A program made the position numbers. This document shows positions 15,001 to 18,000 of a stretch of DNA of 64,000 nucleotides, piece after piece. Within the stretch, counting starts at the first letter, position 1. Every line of letters starts with the position of its first letter. Where the stretch lies: assembly GCF_017348835.2 (NCBI RefSeq), contig NZ_CP071375.1, one strand, 5' to 3'. This DNA is from Escherichia coli (GTDB taxonomy: Bacteria > Pseudomonadota > Gammaproteobacteria > Enterobacterales > Enterobacteriaceae).

Positions 15001-18000
15001 GGCGAGGGGACTGGCCGGGCACATTTTTAGACTTTGTCATCAGTCAGAGCCTGCCAATGGCAGGATCTGGTGTTCTTTTACGCTACCACGCTAATAATCA
15101 GCACAATAATAAGCCCAACCACGGAGTTGACCAGCTCCAGCTGACCCCAGGTTTTCAACGTGTCTTTTACCGACAGGTCAAAGTAACCTTTGAACAGCCA
15201 GAATGAGGCATCATTAATGTGGGTGAGGGTGTTGGAACCCGCAGCCGTCGCCAGCACCAGCAGCGCCGGATTCACGCCAACCAGCTGACCAGTTGCTGGA
15301 TCAAGGATTGCAGCACTGATAATCCCGGCGGCGGTCATCGCCGAAACGACACCCTGACCCGTCGCCAGACGAATTAGCACAGTGATCAGCCATGCCATGA
15401 TGTAGGGCGAGATATTGCCGTGGGACATCAACATGCCGATGGTGTCGCCAATGCCGGTGTCGATGATGGTCTGCTTCAGCACGCCACCCGCACCGATGAT
15501 CAGAATCACCATTGCAATACTCTTCACCGCGCTTTCAAAAGCGTTCATCACCCACTGCATGTCATGACCACGTGCGGTGCCAAAGAGTACGAATGCAACC
15601 ACCATCGCAATAAACATTGCAATCGGCGAGGAACCGATAAAGTTAACCACTTCCCAGGCAGGGGTATCTTTTACCAGCCAGATATTGGCGATGGTGGTAG
15701 AGATCATAATGATCGCCGGGATCAGCGGCACCAGAATCGAAACGCCGAAAGAGGGCAGATTATTCATATCTACCGGTTGATCTGCTTTCAGGAATGATGG
15801 CGTTGGGCGCTCAAGATTGCCGAGGAACTTCGGCAGGATCAGACCTGCGCAGATTACACTTGGGATCGTCACCAGTACGCCATAGATATAAACCATCCCC
15901 ATATCCGCGCCATAAGCATTCACCAGCGCCACCGGACCCGGCTGCGGTGGGAACAGTGAATGTGCGGTAGTGGCAGCTGCTACTGCCGGGATCGCCAGTT
16001 TCAGGAACGGAATTTTAGCTTCGGCGGCAATAACAATAACCAGCGGCGCTAACATGATAAAGGCCACTTCATAGAACATCGCCAGACCAAAAATCAGGCC
16101 GATGATAATCACCGACAGCTGTACATAGCGCAGACCGAGACGCGCCAGCAGCGTATGCGCTATCTGGTGAGCCGCGCCGGAGTCGACCATCAATTTACCG
16201 ATGACCGCACCGAACACCACGATGATAGCCAGTTCCCCCAGCGTGTTGCCGAAGCCCGCTTTCATAGTGTGCAGCAGCGACATCAAATCCATGCCCGCCA
16301 GCATCCCGACGGACAGCGCCGCCACCAACAAAGCCACCATTGAATTGATTTTGAACTTCAAATTCAGTACCAGCATCAGACCAATGCCGAATACCACCCA
16401 GAGAATGTTAAGCACATGCATAACGTTTTACCTTACCTGGTTGAACCGTTGTTATTTTGGGCGACATGTTATGTAAATTGGTCAACCATTGTTGCGATGA
16501 ATGTCACATCCTCTGATCAATAACCATCGATTACCCTTTGCTGCAATTTGCAGCAACAACCATGAGAGTGAAATTCTTGTGATTTGGTTAACCAATTTCA
16601 GAATTCGGGTTGACATGTCTTACCAAAAGGTAGAACTTATACGCCATCTCATCCGATGCAACGCCACGGCTGCGGTCTGGTTGTTCATCCGGATACCTAA
16701 ACAACTCCAGGGTTCCGCGTCTCTTTGCTGTGGAACCCACTATGTGAAAGAGGAAAAATCATGGAACAGACCTGGCGCTGGTACGGCCCAAACGATCCGG
16801 TTTCTTTAGCTGATGTCCGTCAGGCGGGCGCAACTGGCGTGGTTACCGCGCTGCACCATATCCCGAACGGCGAAGTATGGTCCGTTGAAGAGATCCTCAA
16901 ACGCAAGGCGATCATTGAAGACGCAGGCCTGGTGTGGTCTGTCGTAGAAAGCGTGCCAATTCACGAAGATATCAAAACCCACACTGGCAACTATGAGCAG
17001 TGGATCGCTAACTATCAGCAGACTCTGCGCAACCTGGCGCAGTGCGGCATTCGCACCGTGTGCTACAACTTCATGCCGGTGCTCGACTGGACCCGTACTG
17101 ACCTCGAATACGTGCTGCCAGACGGCTCCAAAGCTCTGCGCTTCGACCAGATCGAATTCGCTGCATTCGAAATGCATATCCTGAAACGCCCAGGCGCGGA
17201 AGCGGATTACACCGAAGAAGAAATTGCTCAGGCTGCTGTTCGCTTCGCCACTATGAGCGATGAAGACAAAGCGCGTCTGACCCGTAACATCATTGCTGGT
17301 CTTCCGGGCGCGGAAGAAGGCTACACCCTCGACCAGTTCCGTAAACACCTGGAGCTGTACAAAGATATCGACAAAGCGAAGCTGCGCGAAAACTTTGCCG
17401 TCTTCCTGAAAGCGATTATTCCAGTTGCTGAAGAAGTCGGCGTGCGTATGGCTGTTCACCCGGACGATCCGCCGCGCCCGATCCTCGGCCTGCCGCGCAT
17501 TGTTTCCACCATTGAAGATATGCAGTGGATGGTTGATACCGTAAACAGCATGGCAAACGGTTTTACCATGTGCACCGGTTCCTACGGCGTGCGTGCTGAC
17601 AACGATCTGGTTGATATGATCAAGCAGTTCGGTCCGCGTATTTACTTCACCCATCTGCGCTCCACCATGCGTGAAGATAACCCGAAAACCTTCCACGAAG
17701 CGGCGCACCTGAACGGTGACGTTGATATGTACGAAGTGGTGAAAGCGATTGTTGAAGAAGAACACCGTCGTAAAGCGGAAGGCAAAGAAGACCTGATCCC
17801 GATGCGTCCGGACCACGGTCATCAGATGCTGGACGACCTGAAGAAGAAAACCAACCCAGGTTACTCCGCAATTGGTCGTCTGAAAGGCCTGGCCGAAGTT
17901 CGCGGTGTCGAACTGGCGATCCAGCGCGCTTTCTTTAGCCGTTAATATCCACCGGCATGGCTGCGCGCCGTGCCGGTTCCTTCTTCCTTGCCGTCACTCT

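What the first reader, a model, noticed from the sequence alone, without database searches (positions are those of the whole stretch)
16584..16615. Perfect palindrome TTGGTTAACCAA in the gntP-uxuA divergent control region
A 12-bp perfect palindrome with extended symmetry (ATTTGGTTAACCAATTT) sits ~165 bp upstream of the uxuA start and resembles the UxuR/ExuR operator; a TTGACA -35-like hexamer follows 15 bp downstream. It is a plausible repressor-binding site for the uxuAB operon.
Basis: partly seen in the sequence, partly recalled or inferred. Interest (0 to 1): 0.2.

Follow-up and report, generated by a model that had tools for sequence, protein, structure and literature searches.

The report
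Known UxuR operator, rare perfect variant
The palindrome is the already known binding site where the repressor UxuR switches off the E. coli uxuAB sugar-acid genes; the only unusual point is that this strain carries a rare single-base variant that makes the site perfectly symmetrical.

Summary
TTGGTTAACCAA is at 16584-16595 and TTGACA at 16610-16615, as reported. The window is E. coli fim-gntP-uxuA-uxuB-uxuR DNA, identical over 12 kb to strain PE164. The palindrome is the uxuA-proximal operator (O1) of UxuR, the GntR/FadR-family repressor encoded 3 kb downstream.

- **Motif:** it has the UxuR-type core TGGT-N2-ACCA. That core occurs three times in 64 kb, all in uxu control regions.
- **Scoring:** a matrix built from 11 sites elsewhere ranks it first of 63,983 positions.
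- **Conservation:** the core and a TTGACA exactly 14 nt downstream are conserved in most of the 16 sequences compared, from Escherichia, Citrobacter, Cedecea, Shimwellia and Erwinia, while the flanks are scrambled.
- **Literature:** genomic SELEX puts purified UxuR on this gntP/uxuA spacer.

Three corrections:
- A perfect 12-bp palindrome is not rare in itself (9 found, about 19 expected).
- The "extended symmetry" is imperfect.
- The perfect form is a rare allele. K-12 and at least 5,137 complete genomes have GTGGTTAACCAA; 14 have T, on at least three haplotypes.

Inferred, not shown: the site overlaps a CRP-like site near -60, and it sits 104-106 bp, about ten helical turns, from a second operator.

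The parts
16584..16595 (.). Core of operator O1: the perfect palindrome TTGGTTAACCAA. It contains the UxuR-type box TGGT-TA-ACCA. T at 16584 is the rare allele; K-12 has G.
16581..16598 (.). 18-nt O1 site GATTTGGTTAACCAATTT. It is the top-scoring position in the window with a UxuR-type matrix built from sites elsewhere.
   Evidence: 23.0 bits, rank 1 of 63,983; conservation
16578..16593 (.). CRP-like site TGTGA-tttggt-TAACC, 8 of 10 consensus positions, overlapping O1. Its centre at 16585.5 is about -60 from the predicted start. The TGTGA half does not fit the AAA/ATA flank seen at other UxuR-type sites, yet it is present in 12 of the 16 aligned sequences.
   Evidence: CRP SELEX finds multiple sites in the gntP-uxuAB spacer (PMC3105977); inferred
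16610..16615 (+). uxuAB -35 hexamer TTGACA. It lies 14 nt after O1 in 13 of the 16 aligned sequences; Erwinia psidii has TTGATA after 15 nt.
16633..16638 (+). Predicted weak -10, GAACTT, after a 17-nt spacer. The A at position 2 and T at position 6 are kept across genera (GAAYTT, GATGTT, GAGATT). The predicted start is about 16645-16647.
   Evidence: not called by the consensus scan; inferred
16475..16492 (.). Operator O2, AAATTGGTCAACCATTGT, gntP-proximal. Its centre is 106 bp from the O1 centre. It falls between the predicted gntP -10 and the CRP site.
16493..16508 (.). Strong CRP site TGCGA-tgaatg-TCACA (9 of 10), conserved in Citrobacter. It would sit at -41.5 of the predicted gntP promoter.
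   Evidence: PMC3105977; position inferred
16466..16471 (-). Predicted gntP -10, TAACAT on the minus strand, conserved in Citrobacter.
   Evidence: inferred
19528..19545 (.). UxuR-type site TATTTGGTTGACCAGTTT between uxuB and uxuR, a likely autoregulation site. A weaker site lies at 19508-19525.
   Evidence: PMC5934670 reports a second UxuR site in the operon
15078..16421 (-). gntP, the fructuronate/gluconate permease, transcribed divergently from uxuA.
16761..19486 (+). uxuA (16761-17945, mannonate dehydratase) and uxuB (18026-19486, fructuronate reductase), the regulated operon.
19701..20474 (+). uxuR, encoding a repressor with a GntR helix-turn-helix domain and an FCD domain. This is the protein expected to bind O1.

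Best explanation
The palindrome is O1, the uxuA-proximal operator of the hexuronate repressor UxuR. UxuR is a GntR/FadR-subfamily dimer encoded 3 kb downstream. Genetic work cited in the literature shows that its paralogue ExuR also represses the uxu operon.

Without inducer (fructuronate or glucuronate), a repressor dimer sits on TGGT-TA-ACCA. The site is centred about 56 bp upstream of the predicted uxuAB start, just upstream of a perfect -35 (TTGACA) that is paired with a weak -10 (GAACTT). Such a promoter needs CRP. A CRP-like site (TGTGA-N6-TAACC) overlaps O1. The most likely way of repressing is therefore to keep CRP, or the alpha subunit of RNA polymerase, off the DNA. A second operator, O2, lies 106 bp away inside the gntP promoter and may help.

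Shown here: the identity of the motif, its recurrence and its conservation. Shown in the literature: UxuR binds this spacer. Inferred: the start site, the competition with CRP and any cooperation with O2.

The T at 16584 that completes the palindrome is a rare derived allele of the standard E. coli site.
For: **Genes.** The window carries gntP, then uxuA, uxuB and uxuR; UxuR has GntR and FCD domains.

**Motif.** TGGTNNACCA occurs three times in 64 kb, at 16479, 16585 and 19532, all in uxu control DNA. TTGGTNNACCAA with at most one mismatch gives the same three places. A matrix from 11 sites elsewhere ranks O1 first (23.0 bits), O2 second and the uxuR site third; the next hit scores 15.2.

**Other regulon members.** In K-12, uidR has AAATTGGTTAACCAATAG upstream and uidA has TTAGTTAACCAA.

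**Conservation.** All 12 loci with a close UxuR (at least 62% identity) next to uxuA carry the site. A match with at most one mismatch is found in 40 of 80 upstream regions, against 1 of 80 control segments inside the coding region. In the alignments the operator is invariant, a -35 hexamer (TTGACA, or TTGATA in Erwinia psidii) follows 14-15 nt later in 14 of 16 sequences, and the flanks are not conserved.

**Literature.**
- UxuR motifs have GT-N2-AC spacing (PMC4494728).
- Purified UxuR selects the gntP/uxuA spacer and is released by glucuronate (PMC5934670).
- Deleting uxuR raises UxuA levels and uxuAB promoter activity (PMC9369180).
- The UxuR consensus AAATTGGTATACCAATTT works as an operator in a biosensor (PMC8092373).
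- CRP SELEX hits both gntP and uxuA, with multiple sites in the spacer (PMC3105977).
Against: - No base-resolution footprint of UxuR on this site could be read here. The key papers were not in the library: Blanco 1986, Rodionov 2000, Bates Utz 2004, Suvorova 2011 and Tutukina 2016.
- The start site is predicted, not measured. The consensus promoter scan called nothing.
- The CRP-like site matches only 8 of 10 positions, and about 0.14 such matches are expected by chance in the spacer.
- The sites used to train the matrix were themselves picked by similarity to the core, so that test is partly circular.
- A centre at -56 is unusual for a simple repressor, so the actual mechanism is uncertain.
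Confidence: 0.9

Rival explanations
1. O1 works mainly as one anchor of a DNA loop. Repressor dimers on O1 and on a second operator about ten helical turns away would interact and trap the two CRP sites and both divergent promoters. Exclusion of CRP at O1 alone would then be secondary.
For: - The centre-to-centre distance from O1 to the auxiliary site is 106, 106, 104, 104, 105 and 104 bp upstream in Escherichia and Citrobacter.
- It is 105, 102, 102 and 103 bp downstream in Enterobacter R1, Cedecea, Enterobacter Ag1 and Erwinia psidii.
- Five other taxa have a site at -31 or -32, about three turns away.
- The spacer of about 65 nt between the modules cannot be aligned even among four Citrobacter genomes, yet its length varies by at most 2 nt.
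Against: - UxuR is described as a homodimer (PMC8092373). No tetramer or loop has been reported; the only paper in the library with both 'UxuR' and 'looping' discusses looping for other regulators.
- Other spacings also occur: 13, 125, 142-144 and 186 bp.
- The lineages are few and related.
- In E. coli, O2 already has its own obvious job as the gntP operator.
Confidence: 0.2
2. The sequence is chiefly a CRP activator site for uxuAB. On this reading the inner palindrome is incidental, and the repressor acts only through O2.
For: TGTGA-N6-TAACC matches 8 of 10 positions, and its centre is about -60 from the predicted start. The TGTGA is conserved across genera. CRP binds in this spacer (PMC3105977).
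Against: - The invariant columns are the symmetrical TGGTT.ACCAA, centred 4 bp from the CRP centre. They are not the CRP right half, which should read TCACA.
- The same 12-mer lies upstream of uidR without any TGTGA.
- Taxa lacking the TGTGA (Shimwellia, Klebsiella BIGb0407) still keep the palindrome.
Confidence: 0.05
3. The site is primarily an ExuR operator rather than a UxuR operator.
For: Genetic work cited in PMC5934670 and PMC9369180 shows that the uxu operon is repressed by both the exuR and uxuR products.
Against: - ExuR-type sites have GT-N3-AC spacing (PMC4494728). Examples in K-12 are the exuR, exuT and uxaB sites (GTGGTATAACAA, GTTGTATGACAA, TTGGTACGACAG).
- O1 has N2 spacing, and the gntP-uxuA spacer contains no N3 box.
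- Loci with no uxuR gene near uxuA carry the N3 type instead.
Confidence: 0.05
4. The palindrome is a chance occurrence with no function.
For: Perfect 12-bp palindromes are common: 9 in the window against about 19 expected.
Against: The motif match, the recurrence, the rank-1 score, the conservation across genera at a fixed distance from the -35, and the SELEX data all argue against chance (PMC5934670).
Confidence: 0.01

Closest known systems
UxuR operator of the E. coli K-12 uxuAB promoter (ATGTGGTTAACCAATTT)
   Same: Same locus, position, flanks and promoter. The gntP-uxuA spacer differs from K-12 at only two bases.
   Different: K-12 has G where this window has T at 16584, so the K-12 site is a 5-of-6-pair palindrome. 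The T allele is found in only 14 of about 5,151 typed complete genomes.
UxuR consensus operator AAATTGGTATACCAATTT (used as an operator in a fructuronate biosensor, PMC8092373)
   Same: Same half-sites (TTGGT / ACCAA) and the same 2-nt centre spacing. The right flank is TTT.
   Different: The centre is TA rather than AT. The left flank is GAT, part of a TGTGA CRP-like half-site, rather than AAA.
ExuR operators of the exu regulon (uxaCA, exuT, uxaB, exuR)
   Same: Paralogous repressor and related TKGT/ACMA boxes. ExuR also represses uxuAB genetically.
   Different: ExuR sites have three bases between GT and AC and are more degenerate (PMC4494728). O1 has two.
FadR-subfamily GntR operators in general (FadR, PdhR, LldR, DgoR)
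   Same: An A/T-rich palindrome with TKGT/ACMA boxes, bound by a winged-helix dimer and released by a small-molecule effector.
   Different: Those operators usually overlap the -10 or +1, or lie between -35 and -10, as O2 does at gntP. O1 lies upstream of the -35.
Repression by exclusion of CRP (for example CytR-CRP promoters) and two-operator loops (lac O1-O3, gal OE-OI)
   Same: A repressor site overlaps or adjoins a CRP site upstream of the -35. A second operator lies an integral number of helical turns away.
   Different: No evidence that UxuR contacts CRP or forms tetramers. This is an analogy for the mechanism, not membership.

Membership tests
UxuR-type (GntR/FadR subfamily) operator | Palindrome with TKGT and ACMA boxes separated by 2 nt | tested here: met
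   TGGT-TA-ACCA at 16585-16594. The definition is taken from PMC4494728.
UxuR-type (GntR/FadR subfamily) operator | Lies in the control region of a hexuronate gene, next to the gene for the cognate regulator | tested here: met
   The site lies between gntP and uxuA. uxuR, with GntR and FCD domains, is 3 kb downstream.
UxuR-type (GntR/FadR subfamily) operator | The same motif recurs before other members of the regulon | tested here: met
   It recurs at gntP (16475), uxuR (19528), and K-12 uidR and uidA. The site ranks first with a matrix built from other sites.
UxuR-type (GntR/FadR subfamily) operator | Conserved at the orthologous position across species while the surrounding DNA diverges | tested here: met
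   The operator columns are invariant in 16 sequences from about 8 genera. All 12 loci with a close UxuR carry it.
UxuR-type (GntR/FadR subfamily) operator | Bound by purified UxuR and released by the inducer | not testable with these tools
   The literature shows that UxuR selects the gntP/uxuA spacer and that glucuronate lowers binding (PMC5934670), but only at probe resolution.
UxuR-type (GntR/FadR subfamily) operator | Operator mutations cause constitutive expression | not testable with these tools
   Operator-constitutive mutants are cited in the literature (Mata-Gilsinger 1983, in the reference list of PMC9369180). Their sequences could not be read here.
ExuR-type operator | TKGT and ACMA boxes separated by 3 nt | tested here: not met
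   There is no N3 box in 16422-16760.
CRP binding site (class I position) | Match to TGTGA-N6-TCACA, centred near -61.5 | tested here: inconclusive
   The match is 8 of 10 at 16578-16593, centred about -60 from a predicted start. TGTGA is conserved in 12 of 16 sequences. CRP SELEX is positive for the spacer (PMC3105977).
Sigma-70 promoter | -35 and -10 hexamers with a 16-18 nt spacer | tested here: inconclusive
   TTGACA matches 6 of 6, the spacer is 17 nt, and GAACTT matches only 2 of 6 (the A at position 2 and the T at position 6). The scan did not call it, but all three features are kept across genera.

The most novel reading that the evidence does not exclude
Two linked readings go beyond what I found described.

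**(a) Looping.** UxuR/ExuR control may depend on two operators held an integral number of helical turns apart, about 104 bp or about 32 bp. That spacing is preserved across genera even though the spacer sequence is scrambled, and even though the auxiliary site can lie on either side of O1. This would imply a repression loop that encloses the CRP sites.

**(b) Operator-up allele.** The G-to-T change at 16584 may be a natural operator-strengthening mutation. It restores the perfect palindrome seen in Citrobacter and Erwinia. It occurs on at least three E. coli haplotype backgrounds, and 9 of the 13 exact-match carriers also have a deleted gntP. Together these would hint at repeated tuning-down of hexuronate catabolism.
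Probability: 0.2. Interest if true: 0.35.

Novelty: already known. Interest (0 to 1): 0.12.

Why it matters
In itself it matters little. The UxuR/ExuR operator of uxuAB is a textbook-level regulatory site of the E. coli hexuronate (Ashwell) pathway.

- It confirms that the first-stage reader can recognise a real operator from sequence alone.
- The rare allele is a ready-made natural pair (G versus T) for measuring how the outermost operator base affects UxuR affinity. That could be useful for fructuronate and glucuronate biosensors built on this operator.
- The length-constrained, sequence-scrambled spacer between the two operators is a cheap, testable hint that this dimeric GntR-family repressor acts cooperatively over about 100 bp.

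Tried and rejected
- **Consensus promoter and terminator scan of 16380-16800:** found nothing. The -10 is too weak for its threshold, so I relied on cross-species conservation instead.
- **Rfam search of 16350-16850:** no match. Folding the predicted uxuA leader gave z = -1.74, which is unremarkable. A leader riboswitch or attenuator was therefore not pursued.
- **Full-text search for the literal 12-mer:** only an unrelated primer.
- **Key papers not held:** Bates Utz 2004 and Suvorova 2011. Searches for the uxuAB promoter or start site gave no coordinates.
- **The 'extended symmetry' claim:** rejected as a feature, because the left flank belongs to a TGTGA motif instead.
- **Palindromy as a statistic:** rejected, 9 observed against about 19 expected.
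- **ExuR-type (N3) reading:** rejected.
- **Single clonal lineage for the T allele:** rejected. The closest relative, EC2001, has G and differs at only 5 of 12,001 bases, and the T carriers fall on three haplotypes.
- **Association of the T allele with the gntP deletion:** not claimed. The carriers cluster by lineage, so there are at most a few independent events.

Full report
**Observation.** TTGGTTAACCAA lies at 16584-16595 and occurs once in the window; 0.01 occurrences are expected for that exact 12-mer. TTGACA lies at 16610-16615, 14 nt further on. The uxuA ATG is at 16761, so 165 nt separate it from the palindrome. The claimed extended symmetry is weak: of the three further flanking pairs (GAT / TTT) only one is complementary. 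A perfect 12-bp palindrome is not unusual in itself, because the window has 9 and first-order Markov simulations give about 19. What makes this one meaningful is its sequence, its place and its conservation.

**Context.** The window is E. coli chromosome. The stretch 16300-16900 is present in 5,404 of 5,426 complete genomes, where it is annotated gntP | uxuA. Over 12 kb the window is 100% identical to strain PE164. The gene order is fimH, gntP (15078-16421, minus strand), uxuA (16761-17945), uxuB (18026-19486) and uxuR (19701-20474), as in K-12. UxuR carries a GntR helix-turn-helix domain and an FCD domain.

**Identity of the site.** FadR-subfamily operators are palindromes with TKGT/ACMA boxes. 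UxuR-type motifs have 2 nt between GT and AC, and ExuR-type motifs have 3 (PMC4494728). The finding reads TGGT-TA-ACCA, which is UxuR-type.
- TGGTNNACCA occurs exactly three times in 64 kb: at 16479 (gntP-proximal), 16585 (the finding) and 19532 (between uxuB and uxuR). The gntP-uxuA spacer contains no N3 box. The relaxed 12-mer with at most one mismatch finds the same three places.
- I built a position matrix from 11 UxuR-type sites. None came from this window and none was a uxuA-proximal site. It ranks 16581-16598 first of 63,983 positions (23.0 bits), 16475 second (20.6) and 19528 third (19.9); the next hit scores 15.2. The training sites were chosen by similarity to the core, so this test is partly circular.
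- At unlinked K-12 loci the identical 12-mer lies upstream of uidR (AAATTGGTTAACCAATAG), and TTAGTTAACCAA lies upstream of uidA.
- The exu genes carry the looser N3 type.

**Conservation.** A genome scan with UxuA returned 80 loci.
- All 12 loci that also encode a close UxuR (at least 62% identity) carry the site 98-177 nt upstream of uxuA. These come from Escherichia, Citrobacter, Cedecea, Enterobacter Ag1, Shimwellia, Providencia and Erwinia.
- A match with at most one mismatch is found in 40 of 80 upstream regions, against 1 of 80 control segments inside the coding region.
- In 16 aligned sequences the invariant columns are T.TGGTT.ACCAA.T and part of TTGACA. The DNA before the site and the 14 nt between the site and the -35 are not conserved.
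- The -35 begins 14 nt after the operator in 13 of the 16 sequences. Erwinia psidii has TTGATA after 15 nt, and Erwinia mallotivora and Providencia have no clear -35 hexamer. A 17-nt spacer then leads to GAAYTT, GATGTT or GAGATT, which keep the A at position 2 and the T at position 6 of a -10.
It predicts a start at about 16645-16647, although the simple consensus scan called nothing.
- Twenty-two loci instead have uxuB divergent from uxuA; most of these (20 of 22) have no uxuR within the locus. They carry TTGGTATAACAA (N3, ExuR-type) 28-79 nt before the ATG, mostly about 30.

**Literature.**
- Purified UxuR selects a single genomic SELEX peak in the gntP/uxuA spacer. Glucuronate lowers the binding, and a second site lies within the operon (PMC5934670; also PMC8249747).
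- Deleting uxuR raises UxuA levels and uxuAB promoter activity (PMC9369180).
- The consensus AAATTGGTATACCAATTT works as a UxuR operator in a biosensor (PMC8092373).
- CRP SELEX hits gntP and uxuA and reports multiple CRP sites in this spacer (PMC3105977).
- The primary papers on this promoter were not held in the library. I therefore could not read a base-resolution footprint or the mapped start site.

**Mechanism (inferred).** O1 is centred at 16589.5, about -56 from the predicted start and upstream of the -35.
- Its left flank is TGTGAT rather than the AAA or ATA seen at other UxuR-type sites. TGTGA is present in 12 of the 16 aligned sequences.
- TGTGA-tttggt-TAACC matches CRP at 8 of 10 positions and is centred at about -60.
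- I therefore think the repressor acts mainly by excluding CRP, or the alpha subunit of RNA polymerase, from a CRP-dependent promoter.
- At gntP the picture is classical. There is a 9-of-10 CRP site at 16493-16508 and a conserved minus-strand -10, TAACAT, at 16466-16471. O2, centred at 16483.5, lies between them, where a repressor would block RNA polymerase directly.

**Spacing.**
- O2 is 106 bp from O1 in Escherichia and 104-105 bp in four Citrobacter genomes. The roughly 65 nt between the conserved modules cannot be aligned even among the Citrobacter genomes.
- In Enterobacter R1, Cedecea, Enterobacter Ag1 and Erwinia psidii, which lack the divergent gntP, an auxiliary site lies 102-105 bp downstream of O1 instead.
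- Five taxa have a site 31-32 bp upstream.
- These distances are close to 10 and 3 helical turns, which suggests cooperative binding or looping.
- UxuR is described as a dimer, other spacings also occur, and I found no report of looping. This remains a minority hypothesis.

**The rare allele.** The gntP-uxuA spacer differs from K-12 at two bases, one of them 16584, where K-12 has G.
- I used 33-nt queries centred on this base. Megablast needs 28 exact bases, so such queries report only genomes that carry the queried allele.
- G was found in 3,787 plus 1,350 genomes with the two common flank types. T was found in 13 plus 1.
- The nearest relative with G, strain EC2001, differs from the window at 5 of 12,001 bases, one of which is 16584.
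- The 11 T carriers sequence-checked here, plus the window, fall on at least three backgrounds:
  - the window type;
  - a lineage with an internal gntP deletion, whose sibling Z1323HEC0011 has G;
  - the type shared by strains 21EVA and 100416.
- The change is therefore either recurrent or moved by recombination.
- It makes the site identical to that of Citrobacter and Erwinia and raises the matrix score from 20.3 to 23.0 bits.
- However, the base lies outside the TKGT box and is the most variable operator column across genera (T, G, A, C). Any effect on affinity is probably modest.

**Verdict.** The element is the well-known UxuR/ExuR operator of uxuAB, so the finding is ordinary. The new material is limited to the rarity of the perfect-palindrome allele and the length-constrained two-operator architecture.

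Noticed in passing
window 15183-16363 (relative to loci L085-L091, L094-L096): A common E. coli allele replaces most of gntP (about 1,181 nt) with about 54 nt of other sequence. It leaves a 93-nt pseudogene remnant and keeps both operators and promoters. It is found in 668-671 of 5,426 complete genomes. Nine of the 13 exact T-allele genomes carry it. gntP is intact in this window.
   Followed up: partly
window 16538-16556: A perfect 9+9 inverted repeat, TTGCTGCAA-t-TTGCAGCAA, lies in the otherwise unconserved spacer between O2/CRP and O1, a stretch predicted not to be transcribed. It is identical in K-12, has one mismatch in E. albertii, is broken in another E. coli haplotype (L001) and is absent in Citrobacter. 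No binding protein is known to me.
   Followed up: partly
window 16646-16760: The Escherichia uxuA leader is about 78 nt longer than the Citrobacter leader: the operator is at -177 from the ATG against -99. The extra part can form two hairpins, including GGGTTCC...GGAACCC just before the ribosome-binding site. The fold is not unusual (z = -1.74), there is no Rfam match, and the sequence is single-copy in the genome.
   Followed up: partly
loci L020-L058 (for example L020 at 2973-2984, 28 nt before the uxuA ATG): In genera where uxuB is divergent from uxuA (Enterobacter, Kluyvera, Kosakonia, Serratia, and the second Citrobacter copy), 22 loci have a conserved TTGGTATAACAA before uxuA. It has GT-N3-AC spacing, the ExuR type, and lies 28-33 nt upstream in most loci and 76-79 nt in Serratia. 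This fits regulator replacement in genomes with no uxuR gene next to uxuA.
   Followed up: partly
window 19508-19545: Two UxuR-type sites 20 bp apart lie upstream of uxuR: a weaker one (TTACTGGTCAATCAAACT) and a stronger one (TATTTGGTTGACCAGTTT). They are likely autoregulation sites.
   Followed up: partly
window 19634-19663 and 48514-48543: REP-type repeat GCCGGATAAGGCGTTCACGCCGCATCCGGC. One copy lies between the uxuR-upstream operator sites and the uxuR start codon; a second copy lies at 48.5 kb on the other strand.
   Followed up: no
window 16454-16469 and 16603-16618: A direct repeat, ATTTTGGGCGACATGT / ATTCGGGTTGACATGT (75% identity). The second copy contains the uxuA -35, and the first lies at the predicted gntP start region on the opposite strand. 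Its significance is unknown and it may be chance.
   Followed up: no
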